Source: Eledone cirrhosa
Taxonomy: Eukaryota
Assembly: GCA_964016885.1 (NCBI GenBank)
Contig: OZ024741.1
Coordinates: 342,798,001-342,862,000 of the forward strand
Direction: 5' to 3'
DNA length: 64,000 nt
Shown here piece after piece: positions 1,336 through 61,312 of this stretch. The notes beneath the pieces are model-generated. The model saw only the letters and a program-made list of their open reading frames with translations. It was not told the origin of the DNA and did not search any database. Numbering within the stretch: position 1 is the stretch's first letter; every line of letters starts with the position of its first letter. The position numbers and the translations under genes are program-made.

Positions 1336-1479
1336 TATATATCCCTTTTGCAACAACACAGCTCGCCTTTTTTCATTCATATATGCTTTCCCCATTAAAT
1401 GTAATCTGAGTTTTTCGAATATTAATAATTGTTTCTACTTTAGGCACAAGGCCAGCAATTACCCAGTGCATTACAGTGC

Positions 1480-1788
1480 ATTAATAATATCATTCGATTC
1501 GTTTGCAATTACGCAAACAAGCCTCAATTTTATAGCCATGTCAGTAGAATGAACACATTCTTCCTCTTGTTTGGCAGGTGAACAGAACTGCAGACACTAA
1601 TGTTTCTGGGTATCACCCTTCATCAGTACAGCTCACTGTTCACCTGCCAAACTGTCAGAAACATTAATGTCTGCAGTTCTGTTCACATGCTAATACAAGA
1701 GCAAGAATGAAGGGTTCATTCTACTGACATGGCTATAAAATTGAGGCTTGTTTGCGTAATTGCATACGAATCGAATGTTATTATTAAT
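1480..1788. repeat. Foldback (arms ~130 bp) PLE-type element containing a hammerhead
   Basis: 1480-1608 is the reverse complement of 1656-1788 with few mismatches. Followed closely by (TA)n. Confidence 0.85.
1585..1634 (-). ncRNA. Type I hammerhead ribozyme
   Basis: GAGCUGUA-CUGAUGA-A GGGU GAU ACCC A-GAAAC AUUAGU GUC^-UGCAGUUC. Stem I is 8 bp and is extended by gtttggcaggtgaacag/ctgttcacctgccaaac. Confidence 0.9.
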
Positions 1789-1803
1789 ATTCGAAAAACT
1801 CAG

Positions 1804-1839
<36 letters not shown>

Positions 1840-2191
1840 AACCGCCCGTCCCCTCAATCTATCTTATTTCTCATTCTTTCTTCTGATAAAGGAAACGTTA
1901 AGACCCTCTTCCTGCTATATCAAGCGTTATTTTAATATATACCTTCCATATACCTTCCATATCCCTTCCACTGTATCGATAGGGTTGTTATTTCTGTTAA
2001 CCTTTTACATACATATATATGTATATATATATTAGTATCAGTGCTCTGAAATAGCGATGTATGTATGAATGTATGTATAGTATATTTGATAATATACTGT
2101 ATGTTTATTTTAAAACATTTTGAAGACCATTGGCTATGAGTTATAAAGTAGTGACTATGTCACTTACTTTGTCTCGGCAAAAAACAAAGGG

Positions 2192-2240
2192 AAGCAACCG
2201 ACTGCTGTTTCTCGTTTGTTAACGGTTATCAACATTGCTT
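2192..2240 (-). ncRNA. Hammerhead ribozyme, U3-A8 core variant
   Basis: Reverse-complement copy of 2464-2511. Confidence 0.7.
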
Positions 2241-2463
2241 ATCCCTCCGCTTCTGCCGAGACTTATAGCAGTTGGATTCTTATAGAATTCCAGTGATGTT
2301 TAAGAGCTGATTAAGCATTCATACATACATCGCTATTTCAGAGCACTGATACTAGTTTCTAACTTTTGCTGGACCGGCAACTACTCTGCTTAATCAGCTC
2401 TTAAACATTACTGGAATTCTATAAGAATCCAACTGTTATAAGTCTCGGCAGAAGCGGAGGGAT

Positions 2464-2511
2464 GAGCAATGTTGATAACCGTTAACAAACGAGAAACAGC
2501 AGTCGGTTGCT
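2464..2511 (+). ncRNA. Hammerhead ribozyme, U3-A8 core variant
   Basis: GAGCAAUG-UUGAUAA-C CGUU AACA AACG A-GAAAC AGCA GUC^-GGUUGCU. The first stem I pair is a G.G mismatch. Confidence 0.7.
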
Positions 2512-3203
2512 TCCCTTTGTTTTTTGCCGAGACAAAGTAAGTGACATAGTCACTACTTTAAAACTCATAGCGAATGGTCTTCAAAATGTTTTTAAATTAA
2601 CAGACAGTATATTATCAAATATACTATACATACATTCATATATATATATACCACATACCAAACCTTTCTTAGTAATTGAATGTTCGTCCTTTTTCATTTT
2701 CCCCTTTACCCCCATATATCTAACTCCTCTTTCTCCCGTTACTTTTCACTCCCTGTCTCTCTATTTCTAACAAGTTCTTTTCTACTCAACTAATTTGAAT
2801 AGAATGTATTCCCATCTAGTTGTTACCACAATGCAATATGAACGCCTCTAACTAATCTGAAAACTTGGCTCTCGCTCTCTTAGCTGTTAAGTACATAAAT
2901 ACATATGTTACTACTATTAGCTGGGCAGGACGTTAGAAACTTCGAGCGACGTAACATAGAATTGCTTAATAAGCTGTCACGTCATATACAGAAAAATATA
3001 TACATTCATGCTATTCTTTACTTTCTTTTCATGCTAAATCATGTCTGATGGTCGGCAAATATGCACGAACACTTATGTATGTATGTATGTATGTATGTAT
3101 GTATGTATGTATGTATGTATGTATGTATGTATGTATGTATGTATGTATGTATGTTTGTGTGTGTGTATGTATGTGTGTGTGTATGTACGTGTGTGTATAT
3201 GTA

Positions 3204-5569
3204 TGTTCTTCTGGTTTGATAATTTCACAAATTTTCTTTCCCAATAAAGAGAGAGTCGGTTTCTAACATAGAATTGGAATTTACACAACATCAACTAGGT
3301 AGATATGTATGTATGTCTGCATGTGTAGATATGGATGTTATTGTATGTGTGGATGTGTATGTTTTGAGTTGTATGTGTGCATGTGTATATGCTTTGCATC
3401 TGTACATGTGTATATGCAGTTATTAGATGCAATATTTTTGGAATGTTTTACATATTTTTTCTGTTCTATTAATGGATTGTACTTGTAATTTCCTAACTAA
3501 TTATGTTCTTTCTGTTCCTGTGAAGCCTAGCTTCTCAAGATTTGTATTGAGGCAGTTACTAACATACCCCAGTACCCCAATAATCACAGGCATAAATCTG
3601 AAGGTGTAACAGGGTGGAGTATCTGCAGATTTCTCATCAGTTCTGCATAAATATACCTCCTTTTCTCTAATCTTTGATATTATATTGGTATCTGCTGGGC
3701 AGCTAATTTCCACTACTGTGCATGCTTTCTTCTCCCTGTCCCATATCATAATATCTGGTCTGTTATGCATTTTATTGGGGTTTTTACTGGAACATTCCAC
3801 CAGTACTCTTTCATATTATGTACATGGATGTCTTCCACATTGCTGTAGCTTTTAATGTGTTTATTATCGGGGCTATCTTTTTTACGAACTGCATTGTATA
3901 GTGTTTTGGCCACTACATCATGCCTCATAGGTAGATAGTACCGCGATGACATCTTTGGATAGCTGCTGATGACAAGGGTGATATCCTCGATGTTAGTTCT
4001 TCAGAGTTTGCACTTGTTATCACATTTAGGGGTTTTGCCTGCATCCCTATCTCTTTTGTGAATCCGGTATTTCGTGTTAATCTCCTGTTCTTGGATTGCG
4101 AAAGTGTATCCTTCAAAGTGGGAGCCAATATAGCGGTTGTTGGTCCAAGATAGACTATTTTCCTTATCTATATTACTCTCACTCTGGAGCTTCCTGGCAA
4201 CATATCCATGCATGATTTTTTGCTGATAAGCATGCAGTTTTTGATCCATGGATTCATTGCGATACTGCTGAGCGACTTCCCTGGGTGTGAGTTTTTGATT
4301 ATCACACAGGGAATATCTCTCGAGGAGTTCCTTCCCAACTCTCATGATCCTATCTGTTTAATGCAGATAGACTTGCACGAGAAACGGGCTCCTACGCTTT
4401 GAGGTTCGTAGATGTTGTCGGAGAGATATGATGCGACATTCAAATGTTGTCTGGACTGATGTTAGGCCTCTGCCCCCCCCCCCCCTCCTGCTTATGTTTC
4501 AAGTAAAGGCGGTCTATGTCACTGTTGATGTGGAAGTTTCCGGTATTGTTTAATATTTTTCGAGTTCCAACATCAACTGCTCGGATTTCGACTATCGTCC
4601 AATTGAGTATTCCAAGCGTTGGTGTTAGGTCAGACACAGCAAACACATTGTGAGCCACTGTTTTGTTTTGCGCAGAGAGTTCCGACGACCAGATCTTTCT
4701 TAATCGGGTGTAGTATTCCCTGGTCACGCGTTCTTTATTACAGATACCATTATAGGATATGTTCTCATCTATCCCCAGGTATCTGTAGCAGTCCTCATCA
4801 GATATCGGTGAAACAGTTAGGCCATTGCTGACAATGTTGCTAGATTGGGTTGTTGTTTTTCCCCGCTTTACAGTCATGTATGAGCATTTATCTTGGCCAA
4901 ACTCCATTCCTATATCCTTTGAGAACGTTGTAACCAGCTCAAGATTTTTCTTCATCCCATCCATGTTCTTGGCATAGAGTTTCAGATCGTCCACAAAGAA
5001 ATTATGGGTTAGGTTCGTATTTCTGTCCTCCTGTGAGCCAATGATGTATCCCTCACATTTCTTGAGCAGAAAGGACAAGGGGTTTAATGACAAGATGAAT
5101 AATATCACAAAGAGACTGTCCCCCTGAAATATACCCCTGCAATATTTTATTTTATCAGTGAAAATAGAGTCCTCCCTCTCTGTCTTTAACCTGAGGATAG
5201 TAGCCCAAGAGGAAGACAGCTTCTCTATGGCTCTGACAATAATGTCTGGGACTTTAGCAAGTTGGAGGGCCTCGATCATCCAAGTGTGGGGAACAGAATC
5301 GAAAGCTTTCCTGTACTCCAGCCAGACTGTAGCCATATTCCTCCTAAGGACGTCGCACCTCCGACAGTTTTGTTGATTAGGAGTTGTTCAGCACATCCCA
5401 AACCCATTTCTTTCCAGCTGCTTGTTCATCTGTGATGGTGTTATTATTTTCACAGTGATCTTGGAGGAATAGGTTCAGGCTGGCTGTATACATCTTATAC
5501 ATCAGGTTCTGGCATGCAATGGGTCGGTAGTTTTTGCCAAGTGGGTGTCTTTGTTCTTGGTGACCAGTA
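3204..5569 (-). mobile_element. R4/Dong-like LINE family A, 5'-truncated, frameshifted (RT, CCHC, REL)
   Basis: Motifs NYRPIAC, WLEYRKAFDSVPH, GIFQGDSL, FFVDDLKLY, YRYLG, FAIQEQ, RHD and HNRPDIMIWD..VVEISCP. Both ends abut (TATG)n. Confidence 0.93.
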
Positions 5570-5640
5570 ATGTATGTATGTATGTATGTATGTATGTATG
5601 TATGTATGTATGTATGTATGTATGTATGTATGTATGTATG

Positions 5641-6167
5641 GCAACCCCACCAAGGTTTCTTGGTGAGGAGGGTGACCTTGGACATCGTGCAGGACTAAAA
5701 ACAAAACCTGTCAATGGGCAAAGGAGCTCTTAAGAGTCAATGGCCATCCAAAATCACCGGGAGAGATGACCCCTTAGCCTTTGTCAAGGCAGAATTCTAG
5801 GAGAAGGAAAACTCTGATATAACACCTGCAACCCTGATGGTATCCAATGATGTTGACTTGTTCTTCTTTTTTGTAAATATCATCTTGGTTAAGAGAGTGG
5901 GACTGGCTTTATGCAGTGCCTTTGCTCACTATAAAAGCTTCACGGCACAGGCATTGCTTTATATCTGGAGATCTCTCTGCACTTGTCGTCACATGGTACC
6001 ATAGGCCCAGCAATATGTGTCAATAATTGTCACAAGTGCAGTGTTTGTACCAGAGTTTTCAAGTCGCTGGCGGGACTAAAAAGTCACACTCGTTCAGCGC
6101 ATCAGTAGGGGTTCTCCTACATGGATATGAAGTAGTGGCCGTACTCGAAAACGAGTTGGCAGCCACC
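5641..6167 (+). mobile_element. Probable 5' UTR fragment of an RTE-type LINE
   Basis: GC-richer non-coding block between (TATG)n tracts. 'ggagaaggaaaactctga' resembles RTE 5' leaders (from recall, unverified). Confidence 0.35.
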
Positions 6168-6321
6168 ATGTATGTATGTATGTATGTATGTATGTATGTA
6201 TGTATGTATGTATGTATGTATGTATGTATGTATGTGTGTATGTATGTAGGTATGTATGTATGTATGTATGTATGTATGTATGTATGTGTGTATGTATGTA
6301 TGTACGTATGTACGTATGTAT

Positions 6322-6633
6322 GTTCTTCTGGTTTTATAATTTCACAAATTTTTTCCCAATAAAGAGAGAGTCGGTTTCTAACATAGACGCAAGACTCTCT
6401 CATTGGAATTTACACAACATCAACTAGGTAGTTTATGTATGTATGCATGCATGTATAAATATGGATGTTATTGAATGTGTGGATGTGTATGTTTTGAGTT
6501 GTATGTGTGCATCTGTATATGTTTTGTATCTGTACATGTGTATATGCAGTTATTAGATGCAAAACTTTTGGATTGTTTTACATATCTTTACTGTTCCATT
6601 AATGGATTGTACTTGTAATTTCCTAACTAGTTG
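6322..6633 (-). mobile_element. R4/Dong family A 3'UTR-only fragment
   Basis: Matches 3204-3500. Flanked by (TATG)n on both sides. Confidence 0.85.
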
Positions 6634-6686
6634 TGTCTATGTATGTATGTGTCTATGCATGTATGTATGTATGTATGTATGTATGT

Positions 6687-8545
6687 TTTCTCTTTCTCTT
6701 AATTTCGAGTATATTTTTTTTGACCGGCCACCTTCCTGGTGGCAAGGTTGTAAAAGAAAAGAAATTGTCATCCCTTGAATCGCAAGAATGTTTTGCATAT
6801 TTTGAAGGTGCCAGCTATCGCAGCCATTTGTAGACTATGAATTAGGGAGCTGCGCTTTTTGTCGGCAAATCCAAGTTCGGTCATACTTTGGGCCAAGCGG
6901 GTTGGTATATAACCCGTAGCACCAATAATGATGGGTATGAAGCTAAAGGTGTATCTTGGATACTGGATTTGTAAGCTCCTCATCAATGGTCCGTAGATGT
7001 CCTCCTTCTCCTGTATTTTTCTGACAACGTTTACATCAAGTGGGCAGCTGATCTCCACAACAGAACACGTTTTCAATGTGTGGTCCCAAACTACAATATC
7101 AGGCCGGTTGTGCTTTAATTTGGTGGCAGTTTTTATTTTCAGGTTCCACCAGTATTCCTTAGTGCCATCTGTCTCAATATATTCTTCCTCGTTTGTTGTT
7201 AATTTTGTTTTCCGAAGTGCGTTCCAGATAGTTCTAGCTATCCCATCGTGTCTCATGGGGAGGTAGTAGCGAGATGACATTCTTTCGCAGCTGGCAACAA
7301 TGTGGCTTACATCCTCGATCTTTGTTTTACATAGCCTACATTTATTGTCAGCTGCTGGCCCTCCTCTTTTGTGCAGCAGATATTTGGTAGGGAGTTCTTG
7401 TTCCTGTATTGCATAGAGATATCCCTCAAGGTGTGATGTCATAAACTTGTCTGAACTCCATGCCAGGCTTTTTGAGTGGTTTATCCCCTCTATGGTCTGT
7501 GTTTTACGCCTCAAGTATCCATGCACAACTTTCTCTGTAAATTGGTCAATTTTTTTTTCTTGTTTGAACATTGAATAGGATCTTCCGATTTCTCTGGGTG
7601 AGAGATTTATATCAGGCTTTATTCCATATCTCTCCTCCAGATCAGTCGCTATTCTAATGATATTTCTTTTTTCATGCTCATAAACCTGAGCAAGATGGTC
7701 GCCAACCTTTTTCCTCTGTTGAAGGTGTTGCTTCAGTGTTACTATCCGGGTCTCATATGTTGTTAATATTGATTTTAGACCCCGGCCACCTTCCTTGCGT
7801 GAGAAGTATAGCCTATCCACATCACCATTGATGTTAAAGTTCCCAGTAACACTGAGAAGTTTTCGAGTTCTAACATCCATCTCACTTAGTTCTTGTAATG
7901 ACCAGTTCAGTAGGCCAAATGTTGGCGTTAGAATTGGCACAGCATAGGTATTGTGGGCAATGTATTTGTTGTATGCTGACAGTTCTGATGACCATATTTT
8001 TTTTACTCTTCTGAGGTATTCAGTTCTGGTTCTCTCCTTATTTATGGGTCCATCATATCTGACATTCTCATCCTGTCCAAGATATCTGTAGTTGTCACCT
8101 GACTGCAGAGGTTGTATTGTCAGGCCGTTCATATCTAGATTTCTAGAGGAGGGCACAGCTCTTCCACGTTTTACTGCCAAATATGCACACTTGGACTCAC
8201 CAAATTTCATTTTGATGTCGGTTGAAAATTGTGTAATGAGGTCCAATTGTTTCTTGATGTCATTGATATTTGGCCCATACAACTTCAGGTCATCAACAAA
8301 GAAAAGATGGGAGATACTTCTGGGCCCACTTCTTTGTCCACCTTGTTTCCTGAGTAGGTAAGATAGTGGATTCAGTGAGAGAACGAAGAGTAGTACTGAC
8401 AAGCTATCACCCTGAAAGATGCCCTTCTGGTAATGTATCCTATCAGTCTTAACCTGCTCCTTCTCACCTCTAAGGATCAATTTGGTGTACCAGTTCTTGG
8501 TCAGGCGTTCAACAGCAGCTACTAATGGTTGTGGGACTTTAGCTA
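6687..8545 (-). mobile_element. R4/Dong-like LINE family B, 5'-truncated copy
   Basis: Near-identical to 8653-10505. The 5' junction 'ggactttagcta|tgtatg' has TA microhomology with the repeat. Confidence 0.95.
6768..8480 (-). CDS. Partial retrotransposon ORF: RT C-terminal half, CCHC zinc knuckle, restriction-like endonuclease
   Basis: 570 aa uninterrupted: GIFQGDSLS, FFVDDLKLY, YRYLG, CRLC..H...C, RHD, HNRPDIVVWD..VVEISCP. Confidence 0.9.
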   Translation of the reverse strand: MILRGEKEQVKTDRIHYQKGIFQGDSLSVLLFVLSLNPLSYLLRKQGGQRSGPRSISHLFFVDDLKLYGPNINDIKKQLDLITQFSTDIKMKFGESKCAYLAVKRGRAVPSSRNLDMNGLTIQPLQSGDNYRYLGQDENVRYDGPINKERTRTEYLRRVKKIWSSELSAYNKYIAHNTYAVPILTPTFGLLNWSLQELSEMDVRTRKLLSVTGNFNINGDVDRLYFSRKEGGRGLKSILTTYETRIVTLKQHLQQRKKVGDHLAQVYEHEKRNIIRIATDLEERYGIKPDINLSPREIGRSYSMFKQEKKIDQFTEKVVHGYLRRKTQTIEGINHSKSLAWSSDKFMTSHLEGYLYAIQEQELPTKYLLHKRGGPAADNKCRLCKTKIEDVSHIVASCERMSSRYYLPMRHDGIARTIWNALRKTKLTTNEEEYIETDGTKEYWWNLKIKTATKLKHNRPDIVVWDHTLKTCSVVEISCPLDVNVVRKIQEKEDIYGPLMRSLQIQYPRYTFSFIPIIIGATGYIPTRLAQSMTELGFADKKRSSLIHSLQMAAIAGTFKICKTFLRFKG

Positions 8546-8652
8546 TGTATGTATGTATGTATGTATGTATGTATGTATGTATGTATGTATGTATGTATGT
8601 ATGTATGTATGTATGTATGTGTGTATCTATGTATGTTTGTGTGTATCTATGT

Positions 8653-11600
8653 TATCTCTTTCTCTTAATTTCGAGTATATTTTTTTGACCGGCCACCTTC
8701 CTGGTGGCAAGGTTATAAATGAAAAGAAATTGTCATCCCTACTTTCGCAAGAATGTTTTGCAAATTTTGAAGGTGCCAGCTATCGCAGCCATTTGCAGAC
8801 TATGAATTAGGGAGCAGCGCTTTTTGTCCGCAAATCCAAGTTCAGTCATACTTTGGTCCAAGCGGGTTGGTATATAACCCGTAGCTCCAATAATGATGGA
8901 TATGAAGCTAAAGGTGTATCTTGGATACTGGATTTGTAAACTCCTCATCAATGGTCCGTAGATGTCCTCCTTCTCCTGTATTTTTCTGACAACGTTTACA
9001 TCAAGTGGGCAGCTGATCTCCACAACAGAACACGTTTTCAATGTGTGGTCCCAAACAACAATATCAGGCCGGTTGTGCTTTAATTTGGTGGCAGTTTTTA
9101 TTTTCAGGTTCCACCAGTATTCCTTAGTGCCATCTGTCTCAATATATTCTTCCTCGTTTGTTGTTAATTTTGTTTTCCGAAGTGCGTTCCAGATGGTTCT
9201 AGCTATCCCATCGTGTCTCATGGGAGGTAGTAGCGAGATGACATCCTTTCGCAGCTGGCAACAATGTGGCTTACATCCTCGATCTTTGTTTTACATAGCC
9301 TACATTTATTGTCAGCTGCTGGCCCTCCTCTTTTGTGCAGCAGATATTTGGTAGGGAGTTCTTGTTCCTGTATTGCATAGAGATATCCCTCAAGGTGTGA
9401 TGTCATAAACTTGTCGGAACTCCATGCCAGGCTTTTTGAGTGGTTTATCCCCTCTATGGTCTGTGTTTTACGCCTCAAGTATCCATGCACAACTTTTTCT
9501 GTAAATTGGTCAATTTTTTTATCTTGTTTGAAAATTGAATAGGATCTTCCGATTTCTCTGGGTGAGAGATTTATATCAGGCTTTATTCCATATCTCTCCT
9601 CCAGAACAGTCGCTATTCTAATGATATTTTCTTTTTCATGCTCATAAACCTGGGCAAGATGGTTGCCAACCTTTTTCCTCTGTTGAAGGTGTTGCTTCAG
9701 TGTTACTATCCGGGTCTCATATGTTGTTAATATTGATTTTAGACCCCGGCCACCTTCCTTGCGTGAGAAGTATAGCCTATCCACATCACCATTGATGTTA
9801 AAGTTCCCAGTAACACTGAGAAGTTTTCGAGTTCTAACATCCATCTCACTTAGTTCTTGCAATGACCAGTTCAGCAGGCCAAATGTTGGCGTTAGAATTG
9901 GCACAGCATAAGTATTGTGGGCAATGTATTTGTTGTACGCTGACAATTCTGATGACCATGTTTTCTTTACTCTTCTGAGGTATTCAGTTCTGGTTCTCTC
10001 CTTATTTATGGGTCCATCATATCTGACATTCTCATCCTGTCCAAGATATCTGTAGTTGTCACCTGACTGTAGAGGTTGTATTGTCAGGCCGTTCATCTCT
10101 AGATTTCTAGAGGAGGGCACAGCTCTTCCACGTTTACTGCCAAATATGCACACTTGGACTCACCAAATTTCATTTTGATGTCGGTTGAAAATTGTGTAAT
10201 GAGGTCCAATTGTTTCTTGATGTCATTGATATTGGCCCATACAACTTCAGGTCGTCAACAAAGAAAAGATGGGAGATACTTCTGGGCCCACTTCTTTGTC
10301 CACCTTGTTTCCTGAGTAGGTAAGATAGTGGATTCAGTGAGAGAACGACGAGTAGCACTGACAAGCTATCACCCTGAAAGATGCCCTTCTGGTAATTATC
10401 TTATCAGTCTTAACTTGCTCCTTCTCACCTCTAAGGATCAAATTGGTGTACGAGTTCTTGGTCAGGCGTTCAACAGCAGCTACCAATGGTTGTGGGACTT
10501 TAGCTAACTGTAAAGCCTTAATAATCCACCCATGAGGTACACTATCAAATGCTTTTTGATAGTCCAGCCACACCACAGTCATGTTCCTGCGATTCTTTGT
10601 TGTTTTTTCCTGAATCATTTTGTTGGTTAGTAGGTGATCTATGCAACCCCACACCTCCCTCTTTCCACCAGTTTGCTCAGGTGTTATGATGTTGTTGGTA
10701 GCACAGTGATCCTGTAAGAACAGGTTAAGGCACCCAGTATATAATTTATACATGATGTTTTGGCAGGCTATTGGGCGGTAATTTTTAGCAAGGGTGGTTT
10801 GGCTATTTTGGGGAATGAGGAGAGTAGTGGCAGTTGATAACCATCTGGGCAGTTCTTGTGTGCCTTTAATGGTTTCTGTAAACAGCCGTATGAGATTTTG
10901 CCGATAGAAAGTGAAATTCTTCAACCTGTATCCTGTAACGAGGTCTGGGCCTGGCGATTTCCTATTCGACATTTTCTGTAGAGCTGTTTCCAGTATTGAT
11001 CCATCTATGTCATATTGTTTTGTCTGGACATGTTGGCAGTAGTCCTGTTCCAGTTCTTTTAGCCAATTAGTTTGTCTGTTGAATTCGTCATCCGTTTCCC
11101 ATACAGATCTCCAGTAGCTCTCAACCTGTTCTTTTGAAGGGGTGTCATTTACAGGGATTGAGCTTTTGCCACCGAAGCTGCGATAAACTGATTTAGGATA
11201 TCTGGCAAACAATCTATTTAGCACCTGTCGTTTATGTGCTGTTGACTTATATTTTAGTCTTTCTGCTGTAGCTGTGAGTTGTTTCAACTGGTGTAATTTG
11301 GAGTTCAAAGTTTTAAATTTTGTATCTCCAAATCATCTCTCTAACTTTTTTTTAGGTCTTCCTGGTGTCGTGTGAAGTTGCTCTCTATGTTGCATTTCAT
11401 AACGACTGCGATGTGTGAGATACTTCGTCTCAGGGACAAAATTTTGCTTTTTAAATTTCGCATCCACGCTGGTTCAGGCTTTCTGTTTGTATCTTGATTG
11501 CGTGGTTTTAGATGTGTGTTATATGATAGCAATGTGACAGCTGAAACATATAACAAAATATTAAGCGTTTCAAATGTCGTTTCTACACCTTTAGATCGTA

Positions 11601-12544
11601 TAGCCTTCAGATAATTGCCAGCTATTTCGTTCACCGCTTCCAATTCCAATTTAGTGGGTTCTTTACTGATTCTGGTGTTGTATGGTCTGTCACTCACATT
11701 AAGGCTGTGTATCTCTTGAAACATATCGTTCCATATCACTTGTAGGGTGTCCACAAGTTTTTGGTGTTCTGTTTGTTCAGTAGAGTCATGAATTTCAGCC
11801 TCGTTGTTGATGTGGTGACAATTACTACTAGAGTTAGCTGACCTTTGTCGCTGTTCTTCAGTGGAAGCGGGCTGGATTTCAGCAAAATTGTTGGTGAGCT
11901 GTTCACTGTTAGATTTAGCTGGCCATTCTCTTTGTCTGTCAGTGGAGGTGGGGTGGTTGTCTACAAGGGCTGTATTTGTAGTATCACTCAATTCCGTTAG
12001 ATGTATCAATTTACATCTAATGATACGTTTTGCCTGTTCATTTAAATGCTTTGGAGAAAAGTCTAATTCTGGGTATTTGGAGTTCCATACAGTTTTTAGC
12101 CTTTGCATAAAACCGAACTTTTGGGGTTCAGATTGTTTGTATGCTTCATATAATACTTTGTTAAGCTCGTAGCTCCACTGTATACAACGGTTGTAATTGC
12201 GATTTGGTCGAAGGAGACTTGTACTTTTTGCCATGATGAGTTCGTCTATTCACTAATATTTCGTATTTATTTTTCAAAATAGTCGATGATCTTCTTTAAA
12301 AGTTTCGACAAAGTTCTGACAGAATCAAATTTAAAGTTATTCACAGCTTGGGTAATATTTCTTTTCAGTTAGTTTTTAATTCTACAACTGTGTTTTAAAC
12401 GTTGTTCTTGAATCGTTTGAATCGAGAACAAAAAGAACCGTTACTTAGTATATTTCTTTATGAATGTAATATAATATAACAACGCTGTATTTATATGTTA
12501 AAGTTTATGTATCATTCATATAAACAGGTGTTCTACAACTTATT
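8653..12544 (-). mobile_element. Apparently full-length R4/Dong-like LINE family B (~3.9 kb)
   Basis: ~310-bp 5'UTR, ATG at 12234, Myb-like N-terminus (WSYELN..Y..S.P...GF..RL...W...YP), then KSPGPD, NYRPIAC, RT, CCHC and REL, split by ~5 frameshifts. (TATG)n on both sides. Confidence 0.95.
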
Positions 12545-13387
12545 GTATGTATGTATGTATGTATGTATGTATGTATGTATGTATGTATGTATGTATGTAT
12601 GTATGTATGTATGTATGTATGTATGTATGTGTGTATCTATGTATGTTTGTATGTATGTACGTATGTATGTATATATTATTATTATTCATTTACATATTTT
12701 TTCACACACCGAACCTCGTTAGCTAAGTATTATAAATGAAAGCTTTCCCATGGATCTCTGCATGAAAGTGAGGTTCGCTCAGTCGCCCTCGGACGTATAT
12801 TATGTATTTAAGTGTATGTTTGTCTAAGTATTAATCTAAGTTCACAATATATTGAAAATCATTTGTCTGTAAAGCACATAATATGTGCTCTTCACTTTAA
12901 ACTTAAACTTTTCTGTATGTTTATATCATGGGTGGTAACAATCTTATCTTTCCATATTTTACCAACAGTTTGTACCAGTTATTCCCAAATTTATTTCGTC
13001 GCAGAACCCATACCTCTGTGTTCAGATCTAAAGAAGAGATGGGCTTCGCCGGGCTTAAAATATCTAAGAAACGCCGTATGTCATTAGAGCGCATCGCGAC
13101 TACATTAAGAGTTACGTGTTAAAGAGAGTAAAATATTGCATATATTTGTGTATATAAAACACTTAACATTTCACACTGATCTTTAATAACTAGTGGTTGT
13201 TTCTTATTAAACCAAGCATAGGCAATTTTTTTCGAGCATTGGATCGCATAGGATGTGGCTCATCATAAGGCAGGCCCCATTACTAAAAAATTCAATTTTG
13301 AAATTAGGCGTGCCATTCATGACTGAATTAAGCCATGGAATTTCCACAAGATCAGCTATTATATATAATAACGGGGAGGTTTCTGAA

Positions 13388-25298: not shown

Positions 25299-25400
25299 TG
25301 TACACATGTATACATATATATATATATGTATACATATATATATATATATAGATATGTATGTATAATTATAATATATGTATATGTATATATATATATATAT

Positions 25401-27116
25401 TGGAATAAATGCTCTGAAATAGCGATATATATGTGAATATAGACATAGAATATTCGAAAATATTCTGTATGTTTATAATAAACATTTTGAAGACCTAATC
25501 GCTATAGAATAGAATACGTCACGTATTACAATTAGATTCTCGATAAAAGCAAGGGAAGTAATCTACGCGTTTCATTCTCGTTAGAAATCATCAGGACTAC
25601 ATATCCAGTGCTTTTATCGAGAATGACACAGCTAGAGACTTATAGAATACTTAGCTGTGTACAGGAACTGGTTTGAAAGAGCGGTTGCCGGTCCGGCAGA
25701 AATTAGAAATTGGAATAAATGCTCTGAAATAGCGATATATATGTGAATATAGACATAGAATATTCGAAAATATTCTGTATGTTTATAATAAACATTTTGA
25801 AGACCTAATCGCTATAGAATAGAATACGTCACGTATTACAATTAGATTCTCGATAAAAGCAAGGGAAGTAATCTACGCGTTTCATTCTCGTTAGAAATCA
25901 TCAGGACTACATATCCAGTGCTTTTATCGAGAATGACACAGCTAGAGACTTATAGAATACTTAGCTGTGTACAGGAACTGGTTTGAAAGAGCGGTTGCCG
26001 GTCCGGCAGAAATTAGAAATTGGAATAAATGCTCTGAAATAGCGATATATATGTGAATATAGACATAGAATATTCGAAAATATTCTGTATGTTTATAATA
26101 AACATTTTGAAGACCTAATCGCTATAGAATAGAATACGTCACGTATTACAATTAGATTCTCGATAAAAGCAAGGGAAGTAATCTACGCGTTTCATTCTCG
26201 TTAGAAATCATCAGGACTACATATCCAGTGCTTTTATCGAGAATGACACAGCTAGAGACTTATAGAATACTTAGCTGTGTACAGGAACTGGTTTGAAAGA
26301 GCGGTTGCCGGTCCGGCAGAAATTAGAAATTGGAATAAATGCTCTGAAATAGCGATATATATGTGAATATAGACATAGAATATTCGAAAATATTCTGTAT
26401 GTTTATAATAAACATTTTGAAGACCTAATCGCTATAGAATAGAATACGTCACGTATTACAATTAGATTCTCGATAAAAGCAAGGGAAGTAATCTACGCGT
26501 TTCATTCTCGTTAGAAATCATCAGGACTACATATCCAGTGCTTTTATCGAGAATGACACAGCTAGAGACTTATAGAATACTTAGCTGTGTACAGGAACTG
26601 GTTTGAAAGAGCGGTTGCCGGTCCGGCAGAAATTAGAAATTGGAATAAATGCTCTGAAATAGCGATATATATGTGAATATAGACATAGAATATTCGAAAA
26701 TATTCTGTATGTTTATAATAAACATTTTGAAGACCTAATCGCTATAGAATAGAATACGTCACGTATTACAATTAGATTCTCGATAAAAGCAAGGGAAGTA
26801 ATCTACGCGTTTCATTCTCGTTAGAAATCATCAGGACTACATATCCAGTGCTTTTATCGAGAATGACACAGCTAGAGACTTATAGAATACTTAGCTGTGT
26901 ACAGGAACTGGTTTGAAAGAGCGGTTGCCGGTCCGGCAGAAATTAGAAATTGGAATAAATGCTCTGAAATAGCGATATATATGTGAATATAGACATAGAA
27001 TATTCGAAAATATTCTGTATGTTTATAATAAACATTTTGAAGACCTAATCGCTATAGAATAGAATACGTCACGTATTACAATTAGATTCTCGATAAAAGC
27101 AAGGGAAGTAATCTAC
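25401..27116 (-). mobile_element. Retrozyme-like tandem array: 5.5 apparently identical 310-bp units, each with a hammerhead
   Basis: Units start at 25401, 25711, 26021, 26331, 26641 and 26951. No ORF in the track. (TA)n flanks. Confidence 0.92.
25558..25600 (-). ncRNA. Minimal type I hammerhead (repeated at 25868, 26178, 26488, 26798)
   Basis: GUAGUC-CUGAUGA-U UUCU AACG AGAA U-GAAAC GC GUA^-GAUUAC. Palindromic ACGCGU stem III. Distal 16-bp stem 25536-25551/25609-25624. Confidence 0.92.
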
Positions 27117-29489: not shown

Positions 29490-32400
29490 GGCATACACAG
29501 TCACAGGCTTACACAGACACAGGCACATACATACATAGGCATACACAGACATACACAGTCACAGACATACACAGACACAGACATACACAGACATAGCCAT
29601 ACACAGACACAGACATACACAGTCACAGACATACACAGACACAGCCATACACAGACACAGACATACACATACACAGCCATACACAGACATAGCCATACAC
29701 AGACACAGACACAGACATACACAGTCACAGACATACACAGACACAGCCATACACAGACATAGCCATACACAGACACAGACATACACAGACATAGCCATAC
29801 ACAGACACAGACATACACAGACACAGACATACACAGACACAGACATACACAGACACAGCCACATACACAGACACAGACATGCACAGACACAGCCATACAC
29901 AGACACAGACATACACAGACGCAGACATACACAGACACAGACATACACAGACGCAGACATACACAGTCACAGACATACACAGACACAGACATACACAGAC
30001 ACAGACATGCACAGACACAGACATACACAGACACAGACATACACAGACGCAGACATACACAGTCACAGACATACACAGACATAGCCATACACAGACACAG
30101 ACATACACAGACATAGCCATACACAGACACAGACTTACACATACACAGCCATACACAGACACAGCCATACACAGACACAGACACATGCACAGACACAGCC
30201 ATACACAGACACAGACATACACAGACACAGCTATACACAGACACAGCCATACACAGACACAGACATACACAGACACAGACATACACAGACGCAGCCATAC
30301 ACAGACACAGCCATACACAGTCACAGCCATACACAGACACAGGCTTACACAAACACAGACAGACACAGACACAGCCATACACAGACACAGACATACACAG
30401 ACGCAGACATACACAGTCACAGACATACACAGACATAGCCATACACAGACACAGCCATACACAGACACAGACATACACAGACACAGACATACACAGACGC
30501 AGACATACACAGTCACAGACATACACAGACATAGCCATACACAGACACAGCTATACACAGACACAGCCATACACAGACACAGACATACACAGACACAGAC
30601 ATACATAGACACAGACATACACAGACACAGACAGACACAGACACAGACATACACAGACACAGACATACACAGACACAGACATACACAGACACAGACATAC
30701 ACAGACACAGCCACATACAGACACAGCCATACACAGACACAGACATACACAGTCACACACATACACAGACACAGCCTCACGCAGACACAGACATACAGAG
30801 ACACAGACATACACATACACAGACATACACATACACAGACATACACAGTCACAGGCTTACACAGACAGAGACACATACATACATAGGCATACACAGACAT
30901 ACACAAAAACAGGCGCAGACACAGGCACAGACATACACAGACACAGACATACACAGACACAGACATACACAGACACAGACATACACAGACACAGACATAC
31001 ACAGACACAGCCATACACAGACACAGACATACACAAACACAGTGTTAGACAGACACAGACATACAGAGACACAGACATACAGAGACACAGCCATACACAG
31101 ACACAGCCATACACAGACACAGACATACACAGACATAGACATACACAGACACAGCCACACACAGCCACAGGCTTACACAGACACAGACATACACAGACAC
31201 AGCCACACACAGACACAGTCATACACAGACACAGACATACACAGACACAGCCACACACAGACACAGTCATACACAGACACAGCCATACACAGACACAGCC
31301 ATACACAGACACAGACATACACAGACACAGACATACACATCCACAGACATACACAGACACAGACAGACAGAGACACAGCCACACACAGACACAAACATAC
31401 ACAGACACAGACATACACACACACAACCATACACAGACGCAGACATACACACACACAGCCATACACAGACACAAACATACACAGACACAGACATACACAT
31501 CCACAGACATACACAGACACAGACAGACACAGACACAGCCATACACAGACACAGACATACACATACACAGACATACATAGACACAGACATACACAGACAT
31601 AGCCACACAAAGACACAGACATACACAGACACAGCCATACACAGACACAGACATACACAGACATAGCCACACAAAGACACAGACATACACACACACAGCC
31701 ATACACAGACACAGACATACACAGACACAGACATACACAGACACAGACATACACAGACACAGACATACACAGACATAGCCACACAAAGACACAGACATAC
31801 ACACACACAGCCATACACAGACACAGCCATACACAGACACAGACATACACAGACACAGACATACACAGACACAGACATACACAGACATAGCCACACAAAG
31901 ACACAGACATACACACACACAGCCATACACAGACACAGACACAGACATACACACACACAGCCATACACAGACACAAACATACACAGACACAGACATACAC
32001 ATCCACAGACATACACAGACACAGACAGACACAGACACAGCCATACACAGACACAGACATACACAGACACAGACATACACAGACACAGACATACACAGAC
32101 ATAGCCACACAAAGACACAGACATACACAGACACAGCCACATACAGACACAGCCATACACAGACACAGACATACACAGACATAGCCATACACAGACACAG
32201 ACATACACAGACACAGACATACACAGACACAGCCATACACAGACACAGACATACACAGACACAGCCACATACAGACACAGCCATTTACAGACACAGACAT
32301 ACACAGACACAGACATACACAGACACAGCCACATACAGACACAGCCATACACAGACACAGCCACATACAGACACAGCCATACACAGACACAGACATACAC

Positions 32401-35400
32401 AGTCACAGACATACACAGACACAGCCACATACAGACACAGCCATACACAGACACAGACATACACAGACACAGACATACACAGACACAGCCATACACAGAC
32501 ACAGCCACATACAGACACAGCCATACACAGACACAGCCATACTCAGACACAGCCATACACAGACATAGCCACACACAGACACAGACATACACAGACACAG
32601 ACATACACAGACACAGCCACATACAGACACAGCCATACACAGACATAGACATACACAGACACAGACATACACAGACACAGCCATACACAGACACAGCCAC
32701 ATACAGACACAGCCATACACAGACACAGCCATAAACAGACACAGCCATACACAGACACAGCCATACACAGACACAGCCACATACAGACACAGCCATACAC
32801 AGACACAGACATACACAGACATAGCCATACACAGACACAGACATACACAGACACAGCCATACACAGACACAGACATACACAAACACAGTCTTAGACAGAC
32901 ACAGACATACAGAGACACAGCCATACACAGACACAGACATACACAGACACAGACATACACAGACACAGACATACACAGACACAGACATTTACAGACACAG
33001 ACATACACAGACACAGCCATACACAGACACAGACATACACAAACACAGTCTTAGACAGACACAGACATACAGAGACACAGACATACAGAGACACAGCCAT
33101 ACACAGACACAGCCATACACAGACACATACATACACAGACATAGACATACACAGACACAGCCACACACAGCCACAGGCTTACACAGACACAGACATACAC
33201 AGACACAGCCACACACAGACACAGTCATACACAGACACAGACATACACAGACAGAGCCACACACAGACACAGTCATACACAGACACAGCCATACACAGAC
33301 ACAGCCATATACAGACACAGCCATACACAGACACAGCCACATACAGACACAGACATACACAGACACAGACATACACAGACACAGACATACACAGACACAG
33401 CCACATACAGACACAGCCACATACAGACACAGACATACACAGACACAGACATACACATCCACAGACATACACAGACACAGACAGACAGAGACACAGCCAC
33501 ACACAGACACAAACATACACAGACACAGACATACACACACACATCCATACACAGACACAGACATACACACACACAGCCATACACAGACACAAACATACAC
33601 AGACACAGACATACACATCCACAGAAATACACAGACACAGACAGACACAGACACAGCCATACACAGACACAGACATACACAGACACAGACATACACAGAC
33701 ACAGACATACACAGACACAGCCATACACAGACACAGCCACATACAGACACAGCCATACACAGACACAGACATACACAGACATAGCCATACACAGACACAG
33801 ACATACACAGACACAGACATACACAGACACAGCCATACACAGACACAGACATACACAGACACAGCCACATACAGACACAGCCATACACAGACACAGCCAC
33901 ATACAGACACAGCCATACACAGACACAGACATACACAGTCACAGACATACACAGACACAGCCACATACAGACACAGCCATACACAGACACAGACATACAC
34001 AGACACAGACATACACAGACACAGCCATACACAGACACAGCCACATACAGACACAGCCATACACAGACACAGACATACACAGACATAGCCATACACAGAC
34101 ACAGACATACACAGACACAGACATACACAGACACAGCCATACACAGACACAGACATACACAGACACAGCCACATACAGACACAGCCATACACAGACACAG
34201 ACATACACAGACACAGCCACATACAGACACAGCCATACACAGACACAGCCACATACAGACACAGCCATACACAGACACAGACATACACAGACACAGCCAT
34301 ACACAGACACAGCCACATACAGACACAGCCATACACAGACACAGCCATACACAGACACAGACATACACAGACACAGACATACACAGACACAGCCATACAC
34401 AGACACAGCCACATACAGACACAGCCATACACAGACACAGACATACACAGACATAGCCATACACAGACACAGACATACACAGACACAGACATACACAGAC
34501 ACAGCCATACACCACAGACACAGACATACACAGACACAGCCACATACAGACACAGCCATACACAGACACAGACATACACAGACACAGCCACATACAGACA
34601 CAGCCATACACAGACACAGACATACACAGTCACAGACATACACAGACACAGCCGCATACAGACACAGCCATACACAGACACAGACATACACAGACACAGA
34701 CATACACAGACACAGCCACATACAGACACAGCCATACACAGACACAGACATACACAGACACAGACATACACAGACACAGCCATATACAGACACAGCCATA
34801 CACAGACACAGCCATACACAGACACAGACATACATAGACACAGCCATACACAGACACAGCCATACACAGACACAGACATACACATCCACAGACATACACA
34901 GACACAGACAGACAGAGACAGCCACACACAAACACAGACAGACAGAGACACAGCCACACACAGACACAAACATACACACAGACATACACAGACACAGCCA
35001 CACACAGACACAGACATACACAGACATACACAGACACAGCCACACACAGACACAGACATACACACACACAGACATACACAGACACAGTCACACACAGACA
35101 CAGTATACACACACACAGACATACACAGACACAGCCATACACAGACACAGACATACACAGACACAGACATACACAGACATAGCCACACAAAGACACAGAC
35201 ATACACAGACACAGCCATACACAGACACAGCCACATACAGACACAGCCATACACAGACACAGACATACACAGACATAGCCATACACAGACACAGACATAC
35301 ACAGACACAGACATACACAGACACAGCCATACACAGACACAGACATACACAGACACAGCCACATACAGACACAGCCATACACAGACACAGACATACACAG

Positions 35401-36690
35401 ACACAGACATACACATACACAGCCACATACAGACACAGCCATACACAGACACAGCCACATACAGACACAGCCATACACAGACACAGACATACACAGTCAC
35501 AGACATACACAGACACAGCCACATACAGACACAGCCATACACAGACACAGACATACACAGACACAGACATACACAGACACAGCCATACACAGACACAGCC
35601 ACATACAGACACAGCCATACACAGACACAGACATACACAGACACAGACATACACAGACACAGCCATACACAGACACAGACATACACAGACACAGCCACAT
35701 ACAGACACAGCCATACACAGACACAGACATACACAGACACAGACATACACAGACACAGCCACATACAGACACAGCCATACACAGACACAGACATACACAG
35801 ACACAGACATACACAGACACAGCCATACACAGACACAGACATAGACAGACACAGCCATACACAGACACAGCCATACACAGACACAGACATACACAGACAC
35901 AGACATACACAGACACGGCCATACACAGACACAGACATACACAGACACAGCCACATACAGACACAGCCATACACAGACACAGACATACACAGACACAGCC
36001 ACATACAGACACAGCCATACACAGACACAGCCACATACAGACACAGCCATACACAGACACAGACATACACAGTCACAGACATACACAGACACAGCCACAT
36101 ACAGACACAGCCATACACAGACTCAGACATACACATCCACAGACATACACAGACACAGACAGACAGAGACACAGCCACATACAGACACAGCCATACACAG
36201 ACACAGACATACACAGACACAGACCTACACAGACACAGCCATACACAGACACAGGCATAGACAGACACAGCCATACACAGACACAGCCATACACAGACAC
36301 AGACATACACATCCACAGACATACACAGACACAGACAGACAGAGACACAGCGACACACAGACACAGACAGACAGAGACACAGCCACACACAGACACAGAC
36401 AGACAGAGACACAGCCACACACAGACACAAACATACACACAGACATACACAGACACAGCCACACACAGCCACAGACATACACAGACACAGCCACACACAG
36501 ACACAGACATACACACACACAGACATACACAGACACAGCCACACACAGACACAGACATACACACACACAGACATACACAGACACAGACATACACAGACAC
36601 AGACATACACACACACAGACATACACACACACAGACATACACACACACAGACATACACAGACACAGACATACACAGACACAGACACACTA
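29490..36690. repeat. 7.2-kb satellite of 6-bp monomers (18-bp ACACAGACACAGACATAC / ...CCATAC unit) with higher-order duplications
   Basis: Rare markers (atccacag, agtcttagacag, ccacaggctt, acaaagac) recur in blocks. Confidence 0.95.
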
Positions 36691-60186: not shown

Positions 60187-60469
60187 CTTGACCACAAAAA
60201 AATACTTTTTAAAAAATCATGTTCACTTAAAAATAATTTTTAAATAATGCAAAATGAAATTGAAAGGCCCATATATATATATAGTTCTACTTGTGGGGGG
60301 GGGGGGGGGGGGTCATATTGTGGTAATAATATTCCCAGAATTAATAACAGAACACGCTCACTGTTTGGTTGGTTTTCGCTTTATATCAGTTAATTCATTC
60401 ACTCCTCAATGTTTACCATTGACTGACCAACGGTAAAAAATACAGATATAATATAGATATAAACACATA

Positions 60470-61312
60470 TATATAGTCTAACAAAGTTCTTTCGTTGCAC
60501 ATCTGCAACATCGTCAGTGGTGCTATTATGTTCTTCCTGTTGTATTGTATATCTACGCCATCTTTATTTTATCTGTTTATTTATTTATTTATTTATTTAT
60601 TTATTTTTGTCTTCTCTGCGTATGCGTTTGCGAGTGTGTATAGTGTTTGGTGTGTGTTCGCGTTTGGGTGACTGTGTTTTGGTTATTGTATTCTATCTTA
60701 GTTTATTAGTGTGTGTTTATATGTGTTTGTTGTTATTGTGCTTGTGTATATATATATATTTATTTATTCATATTTCTCTTAAGTTAGTACTGTTTGTTTG
60801 GGTGTTGTTGTTATTCCATTTATTTTTTCTGTTTAGCTTTGGCTTTCTAAGTTCTATTTCACTTGCCTCCCTGATTTGCCTATCTGCTAGGTCATTTTTA
60901 TGTTTAGATATTATTTTAATTTCTATGTTGTCTATGTTACCGTCATGTTGTTGTCTGGCGTGTTCGTATAGTACTGAACCGCTTTTCGTCCTTTTAGTTC
61001 CCCCCAGTGTTGGTCTATCCTTTCACCTATGCTACGAGCTGTCTCCTCTATATATGTTGTTGTCATGTTTCTGCATGTACTCTCTGTACATCTTATGCTA
61101 TAGACTACGTTTCTAGTTTTACAGTTTATCCGGGGGTTTACTTTAAATATAATACATTTAGTATTAGTTCAGTGGATTTTCTTAAAAGGGTATGTTTTGA
61201 TGATCAGGGATTTTATGGTAGTTCGTGGCTTTTCTACCACTTTAATCTTTAAGTGGGTCTTTCTCAGGGCCTTTCTACACTGGTTAGCTAATTTCCCTCC
61301 AGGTAAAAAATC
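60470..61312 (-). mobile_element. PLE 3' fragment of a non-Naiad clade: GIY-YIG, 3'UTR and degenerate hammerhead
   Basis: Manual translation NCKTRNVVYSIRC..C..TYIEETARSIGERIDQH (not in the ORF track). CUGACGA-U GUUGCA GAUG UGCAAC-GAAA at 60490-60517. Confidence 0.8.

What the first reader, a model, noticed from the sequence alone, without database searches (positions are those of the whole stretch)
2032..2640. Sister retrozyme family showing coupled covariation and circular permutation
Seen: this element is homologous to the 310-bp unit but has a U3-A8 core instead of C3-G8. The distal stem changes on both arms (tctcgATa/tATcgaga versus tctcgGCa/tGCcgaga), and stems I and II differ in sequence yet still pair. 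The 2317-2640 copy runs across the unit junction and starts and ends in 'attcata', so it is about one permuted circle length. It is joined to an inverted partial copy, as in PLE insertions. Inference: selection on RNA structure within one family, and a circular or multimeric template.
Basis: partly seen in the sequence, partly recalled or inferred. Interest (0 to 1): 0.8.

Follow-up and report, generated by a model that had tools for sequence, protein, structure and literature searches.

The report
Penelope-inserted retrozyme under RNA-structure selection
This is an aged, back-to-back insertion of a small non-coding repeat carrying a predicted self-cutting RNA (hammerhead); its uneven ends match the footprint of Penelope-type jumping genes, and its relatives show that only copies with an intact RNA fold have spread, likely by being copied from an RNA circle.

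Summary
Confirmed: 2033-2640 is two head-to-head arms of a 317-nt unit with a type I hammerhead fold, 69% identical to the window's 310-bp array. U3-A8 is family-wide; the G.G pair and a broken stem III palindrome are shared by both arms but rare in the family, so this copy is likely a poor cutter. 'Starts and ends in attcata' is a coincidence: 3' ends fall at two fixed sites about 31 nt apart, 5' ends scatter. One arm has this 'tail', the other not, in 79 of 79 young-family and 13 of 13 clearly readable own-family insertions, in (TA)n: the Penelope-like-element (PLE) footprint. Across six subfamilies 17 of 27 pairs change on both sides; U3-A8 is not one clade (p-AU 0.0003). In the young sister family, hammerhead substitutions fixed in insertions keep the fold 11 of 11 times, single-unit ones break it 12 of 12 (p 7e-7). 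U3-A8, retrozymes and PLE tails are published; the scan found the two-arm footprint and U3-A8 cores before on other DNA of this genome. Cleavage, circles and the partner PLE are unproven.

The parts
2006..2032 (.). left (TA)-rich microsatellite target
   Evidence: sequence
2033..2317 (-). arm A: 285 nt, unit positions 71 to 317 then 1 to 38; 5' end at the central junction, 3' end at the left flank, with tail
2033..2063 (-). 31-nt 'tail' (unit 8-38), present at this outer end only
   Evidence: same one-end tail in relatives
2079..2098 (-). 8-bp hairpin upstream of the no-tail end, arm A copy
2171..2262 (-). type I hammerhead domain of arm A; core 2232-2226; predicted cut between 2200 and 2199
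2317..2640 (+). arm B: 324 nt, one 317-nt unit plus 7 nt; 3' end without tail
2442..2533 (+). type I hammerhead domain of arm B: distal stem, stem I (G2471.G2505 mismatch, locus-rare), U3-A8 core 2472-2478, stem II 2479-2492 (C.A first pair), GAAA 2493-2496, stem III ACAGCAGT 2496-2503 (family majority is the palindrome with T at 2501), predicted cut after C2504
2606..2625 (+). 8-bp hairpin with two compensatory pairs, 15 nt before the no-tail end; candidate reverse-transcriptase recognition element (inferred)
2641..2650 (.). right (TA)n target
   Evidence: sequence
25399..27116 (-). young sister family: single arm of 5.54 identical 310-nt units, C3-G8 core, tail end at 25399, in (TA)n

Best explanation
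The locus is one old two-armed insertion of a non-coding retrozyme whose ends carry the Penelope-like-element footprint, and it was likely written by a PLE reverse transcriptase/GIY-YIG enzyme acting in trans that nicked both strands of a (TA)n tract and copied one, probably circular, RNA from both nicks. Shown: unit, hammerhead fold, two divergent arms with 3' ends outward, two fixed 3' ends paired one-of-each, (TA)n targets, one haplotype per insertion, arms longer than one unit, purifying selection on the hammerhead fold among transposing haplotypes of the young sister family. Inferred: tandem arms are transcribed, cut by dimer-form hammerheads (palindromic stem III) and ligated to monomer circles; two enzyme subunits start at two sites about 31 nt apart beside an 8-bp hairpin, run on round the circle past the cut site, stop at random, and the two cDNAs are joined 5' to 5'. 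The window copy is predicted to be a weak cutter and a dead end.
For: Own family: 20 of 29 distinct loci are two-armed and divergent; 13 have clearly one tail and one no-tail end, 4 have one no-tail end plus an atypical end, 3 have a truncated arm, none has two like ends. Young family: 1051 tail ends and 1255 no-tail ends genome-wide; 53 of 53 divergent pairs are tail + no-tail (p 6e-17) and 26 of 26 more among 37 fetched unpaired ends. An intact PLE of this genome (1227-aa RT + GIY-YIG ORF) has the same geometry in (TA)n (L249, L251). Published PLE traits: inverted 5'-truncated copy, 30-40 bp tail on one end, (TA)n bias; nicking and extension of both strands, two internal RT starts bounding the tail. 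Template: arms up to 27.3 units; arms share their major haplotype in 36 of 37 testable insertions, 18 haplotypes in 39 insertions, 0 of 31 unit-level variants mirrored between arms; 5' ends not enriched at the cut site, 3 of 124 versus 4.4 expected. Window arms share 7 differences from the family majority. Selection: 11 of 11 fixed versus 0 of 12 single-unit substitutions are fold-compatible, 48 loci, 457 units, p 7.4e-7; 17 of 27 pairs change on both sides in 13 sequences, 0 of 500 shuffles, slid controls 3-6; U3-A8 monophyly rejected.
Against: No cleavage, expression or circle was observed. The partner is not identified: the Neptune-like PLE examined has a 66-nt tail, not 31-33, its intact copies are only about 93-95% alike over aligned stretches while the young retrozyme is 97-100%, and it has no blastn similarity to the units outside one fused locus. 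One of 10 readable two-arm insertions of older subfamilies has two no-tail ends (L265); L117 has two tail-type ends; in L217 four of five left-arm units differ from the right arm. Three long arrays carry variants repeated in 2-3 units, so DNA-level duplication or multimeric templates also act. Both window arms share damaging changes (G2471, A2501; self-duplex -2.3 versus -11.1 kcal/mol) and both arms of L027 share a stem II deletion, so defective RNAs can be inserted or arms convert each other. 9 of 37 own-family cores are broken. No own-subfamily arm holds two full hammerheads (longest 1.61 units).
Confidence: 0.7

Rival explanations
1. Same PLE two-strand priming, but the template is a linear, uncleaved multi-unit transcript of an existing array; no circle is needed.
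For: HHR mutants of the anole PLE still insert in vitro and unprocessed RNA is its main substrate. Own-subfamily arms never exceed 1.61 units. Repeated variants in L139, L140, L235. Young homogeneous donors would also give one haplotype per insertion.
Against: 0 of 31 variants mirrored between arms; a linear route without cleavage gives no reason for selection on the hammerhead; arms of 8-27 units are common although each round would only truncate.
Confidence: 0.2
2. The unit is only the pseudo-LTR of an unidentified autonomous PLE, and these loci are its 5'-truncated remains; selection acted on the PLE, not on an independent RNA.
For: All end features are those of PLE insertions; Xenopus retrozymes resemble pLTRs; three loci join retrozyme directly to Neptune-like PLE sequence (L117, L263, L283).
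Against: Arms run from one unit into the next unit, not into coding sequence, for up to 27 units; none of 37 'unpaired' ends led into a PLE; the three junctions are to PLEs with their own, different pLTR and hammerhead.
Confidence: 0.06
3. A satellite amplified and folded back at the DNA level, or palindromes made by assembly; the hammerhead is incidental.
For: Repeated variants within three long arrays; shared variants between arms could be gene conversion in a hairpin.
Against: Over a thousand dispersed ends at two fixed sites, strict one-of-each pairing, different unique flanks on each side, arms of this locus differ at 8 sites, selection on RNA pairing.
Confidence: 0.04

Closest known systems
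Metazoan non-LTR retrozymes (Cervera and de la Pena 2020, PMC7229834: passages and Discussion read; Li, Clavereau and Pollet 2026, 10.64898/2026.07.22.740005: parts 1-3 of 5 read, abstract to Discussion; supplements not seen)
   Same: About 300-nt non-coding unit, type I hammerhead, tandem copies, proposed circRNA intermediate and PLE partner.
   Different: Those papers argue the PLE link from co-occurrence and pLTR homology; the passages read describe no inverted arms, tails or (TA)n targeting and no test of selection. This locus has its two hammerheads on opposite strands, so it fails Li's definition of an active element.
PLE insertions: Neptune/Naiad/Poseidon (Craig et al., 10.1101/2021.04.23.441226: passages read; Frangieh et al. 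2024, PMC11167929: parts 1-2 of 4 read, whole main text)
   Same: Inverted 5'-truncated copy at the 5' side, 30-40 bp tail on one end, (TA)n or AT-rich targets, two internal RT start sites, both strands extended.
   Different: No ORF; arms are multimers of a 310-320 nt unit; strict tail/no-tail pairing counted here (79 of 79); hammerhead integrity is selected here whereas it was dispensable for insertion in vitro in the anole element.
U3-A8 hammerheads of Schistosoma mansoni Cercyon PLEs (Cervera and de la Pena 2014, PMC4209133: parts 1-2 of 4 read)
   Same: U3-A8 instead of C3-G8, about 1300 hits there; opposite-strand pairs 100-700 bp apart; palindromic stem III; circular-template proposal.
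   Different: Those are minimal motifs in pLTRs; here a full type I motif with extended stem I, and both core states occur in related subfamilies with at least two changes on the tree.

Membership tests
Metazoan non-LTR retrozyme | Type I hammerhead motif | tested here: met
   Core, three stems and GUC site present; covariation in 13 sequences. No Rfam hit.
Metazoan non-LTR retrozyme | Short (about 300 nt) unit found from monomers to tandem multimers | tested here: met
   317-nt unit; relatives form arrays up to 27 units (young family) and about 14-17 units (U3-A8 subfamily C).
Metazoan non-LTR retrozyme | No coding capacity | tested here: met
   No stop-to-stop frame of 120 aa or more over 2033-2640.
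Metazoan non-LTR retrozyme | [quoted passage not shown] | tested here: not met
   This locus has one hammerhead per strand; among 51 exact-core matches of its subfamily the five close pairs are all on opposite strands. Met by sister families. The locus is the solo/offspring class.
Metazoan non-LTR retrozyme | Self-cleavage and accumulation as circular RNA | not testable with these tools
   Needs bench assay or RNA reads.
PLE-mobilised insertion | Inverted 5'-truncated copy adjoining the 5' end | tested here: met
   This locus; 20 of 29 own-family loci; 79 young-family insertions.
PLE-mobilised insertion | 30-40 bp tail at one end only | tested here: met
   31 nt here; one-of-each in 13 of 13 clear own-family and 79 of 79 young-family insertions; one exception in 10 of older subfamilies.
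PLE-mobilised insertion | (TA)n microsatellite target | tested here: met
   Flanks.
Autonomous PLE | RT plus GIY-YIG ORF | tested here: not met
   None in the element.
PLE pLTR derivative (Li 2026) | Sequence homology to the pLTR of an autonomous PLE | tested here: inconclusive
   No blastn match of three unit types to 20 loci of one Neptune-like family except the fused locus and one 38-nt hit; other PLE families of the genome were not searched.

The most novel reading that the evidence does not exclude
An animal lineage of viroid-sized circular RNAs evolves under selection as RNA, needs its hammerhead to propagate (switching repeatedly between C3-G8 and U3-A8), and is written into DNA by a dimeric Penelope enzyme whose two subunits start at two fixed sites and run round one circle from opposite strands of a break, which also explains the tail-and-inversion structure of all PLE insertions.
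Probability: 0.45. Interest if true: 0.75.

Novelty: new variant of a known kind. Interest (0 to 1): 0.55.

Why it matters
How animal retrozymes move, what the hammerhead is for, and why PLE insertions have inverted copies and a one-sided tail are stated as open in the papers read. This family gives a 310-320 nt substrate, two predicted RT start sites, a candidate recognition hairpin and natural loss-of-fold controls. The fixed-versus-single-unit contrast is genomic evidence that the ribozyme fold is needed for spread in vivo, which the in vitro anole result did not show. The locus itself is a decayed copy.

Tried and rejected
Rfam: no hammerhead match. DNA search of the genome with the 310-bp unit returned 0 candidates, not even the window: tool blind spot, replaced by patterns. 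Sequencing runs: no RNA holder listed; contigs of four coded runs of unknown kind laid on 1900-2800 showed related copies in two of them and say nothing on expression. Target-site duplication: 3 of 46 loci with an informative match versus 0.12 in shuffled pairs, 9 of 55 loci skipped and junction cutting imperfect; unresolved in (TA)n. U3.G8 as a stepping stone: only 3 TG and 1 CA among the first 100 of 1815 core matches (hand count; 66 TA, 30 CG), compatible with decay; not established. 5' ends at the cleavage site (suggested by the window array, which starts at unit 183): not general. Autonomous partner sought through chimeras and wide-spaced same-strand cores (these were old arrays, no ORF). 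One paper on PLE hammerhead dimers recalled from memory was not held and a guessed id gave an unrelated paper; it is not used. R-scape is not available.

Full report
Observation. The window lies in a 3.0-Gb genome; that it is octopus-like is my guess from recall and comes from no call. Bases 2033-2640 are two arms of one 317-nt unit: arm A (2033-2317, minus; unit 71 to 317 to 38) and arm B (2317-2640, plus; unit 1 to 317 to 7), 96.9% alike over 254 nt, 5' ends meeting at 2317, 3' ends in TA-rich tracts. Arm B is 68.9% identical to the minus strand of the 310-bp array at 25399-27116. Each arm holds a type I hammerhead fold (z -6.6, -7.2) with core TTGATAA, a C.A first pair in stem II, and GUC at 2502-2504. 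Rfam does not detect it.

The family. A DNA search gave 2647 candidates, 40 scored, copies mostly 89-94% identical; the exact core occurs 51 times. In 37 hammerhead domains from loci chosen by whole-unit similarity, 28 have an intact U3-A8 core; position 2.1 is C in 32 (pairing G1.1) and stem III is the palindrome ACAGCTGT in 29. The window's arms share 7 differences from the majority of 33 copies, including G2471 (3% of copies) and A2501 (0%), which give the G.G pair and drop the predicted stem III self-duplex from -11.1 to -2.3 kcal/mol. So both arms come from one template (or converted each other), and this copy is predicted to cut poorly. A motif shared with the young family matches 20,557 times (control 0), and a tail pattern that excludes it 1149 times, revealing further subfamilies.

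Covariation. Among 73 distinct domains, positions 3/8 were U-A 39, C-G 32, U.G 2, C.A 0 (the pattern allowed all four). On 13 hand-picked representatives of six subfamilies, 87% of cells pair, 17 of 27 pairs change on both sides, 0 of 500 shuffles reach this, and slid controls give 3-6 pairs. That control ignores relatedness, and few independent events underlie it. On a tree of 17 units with the core masked, starred branches force at least two changes of U3-A8 and its monophyly is rejected (p-AU 0.0003; 0.0012 without the long-branch young-type row). An 8-bp hairpin 15 nt before the no-tail end pairs in 95 of 96 cells with two compensatory pairs.

Selection. In the young family I compared substitutions fixed in at least 80% of an insertion's units (template haplotypes) with those in a single unit (later mutation or error), over 48 loci and 457 units, on a structure drawn by hand from the fold and the canonical core. 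Inside the hammerhead domain 11 of 11 fixed changes keep pairing or lie in loops or at N7, and 12 of 12 single ones break a pair or the core (Fisher p 7.4e-7; paired sites alone 2e-5). Of all possible substitutions 184 of 267 would be disruptive, of transitions 42 of 89, so the result does not rest on the singletons. Two fixed and two single indels in the domain and 8 intermediate-frequency variants (one breaking pair 1.1, in 2 of 20 units of L140) were left out. This was measured in the sister family, not in the U3-A8 subfamily of the finding.

Ends. 3' ends fall at unit 7 (no tail) or 38-46 (tail); 5' ends scatter. Of 29 distinct own-family loci, 20 are divergent two-arm insertions: 13 clearly tail plus no-tail, 4 atypical, 3 truncated, none with like ends. 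In the young family there are 1051 tail and 1255 no-tail ends. Of the 81 and 100 listed on the first 218 Mb of contig C1, 53 form divergent pairs within 16 kb, all tail plus no-tail. I fetched 37 of the 75 unpaired ends: 26 were two-armed, again all one-of-each (two with second arms under 20 nt), 8 single-armed, 2 ran into N, 1 reached beyond the stretch. Older subfamilies gave 9 one-of-each and 1 double no-tail. Craig et al. describe the inverted copy, the one-sided 30-40 bp tail and (TA)n bias for PLEs; Frangieh et al. show a PLE enzyme nicking and extending both strands and starting at two internal sites that bound the tail. The geometry here is what extension from both nicks would leave.

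Template. Arms reach 27.3 units. In 39 insertions (392 units) there are 18 major haplotypes; both arms share it in 36 of 37 testable cases; 0 of 31 unit-level variants are mirrored between arms. 5' ends are not enriched at the cut site (3 of 124 within 5 nt, 4.4 expected). This favours a monomer circle, but homogeneous linear donors are not excluded, and repeated variants in three long arrays show some DNA-level duplication or multimeric templates.

Partner. A Neptune-like PLE (label by its CxxC linker, and recall) with RT and C-terminal GIY-YIG, 23,663 candidates and open frames up to 1257 aa, inserts in (TA)n with the same two-arm, one-tail geometry. Three loci join retrozyme to such PLE sequence directly (L117, L283, and L263 to a 64-66% related family), which may be template switches or deletions. 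Against it: its tail is 66 nt, and it shows no homology to the unit. The partner stays unidentified.

What is known. Retrozymes, the circle model and the PLE suggestion. U3-A8 in S. mansoni PLEs. Searches listed no paper that shows PLE end signatures or a selection test for retrozymes; the library omits most subscription papers, and the bioRxiv supplements were not seen. The scan's earlier notes report the two-arm footprint and U3-A8 cores on other DNA of this genome; look-ups by this sequence and by covariation/selection words gave nothing. I had reached my reading before those look-ups.

Verdict. A real, decayed member of a retrozyme superfamily with PLE insertion marks. The element type and core variant are known; the strict end pairing, the repeated core switch and the selection contrast sharpen an open mechanism and make it testable. 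Interest 0.55.

Noticed in passing
window 1396-1813: A second, unrelated two-arm element with a type I hammerhead on the minus strand (core CTGATGA at 1626-1620, perfect 8-bp stem I, long distal stem; z -7.7). A similar element lies in L117 about 2000-2320.
   Followed up: partly
window 60460-61303 (minus): PLE endonuclease-end fragment (55-59% to the L249 protein) followed by a minimal hammerhead-like motif at 60517 of the L232 pLTR type.
   Followed up: partly
window about 3200-12700 (minus): Several broken copies of a non-LTR retrotransposon (RVT_1, zf-RVT) separated by (ATGT)n tracts.
   Followed up: no
window 45498 (+), 58502 (-), 49995 (+): CTGATGA...GAAA motifs in other repeats; the 45498 one folds no better than shuffles (z -1.2).
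   Followed up: partly
window 29511-36685: 7-kb array of a 16-bp unit with extreme strand skew.
   Followed up: no
L235 1499-1770: About 270 bp of foreign sequence between the two arms of a young insertion.
   Followed up: no
L144 5-591 and 2094-3652: Two neighbouring insertions with identical central junctions (unit 101/250), i.e. a later DNA duplication.
   Followed up: no
L071, L074, L232, L241 flanks: Young retrozymes sit in the (TA)n tracts at the ends of Neptune-like PLE copies: shared target.
   Followed up: partly
young family unit 187; L061, L071, L154, L156, L222: Two fixed one-base insertions just after the predicted cut site make the 311-nt variants; possibly ligation scars, untested.
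   Followed up: no
window 2479/2492 and young unit 162/175: First pair of stem II is C.A in this subfamily and U.U in the young family, but A-U or G-C in the others; one young haplotype restores A-U.
   Followed up: partly
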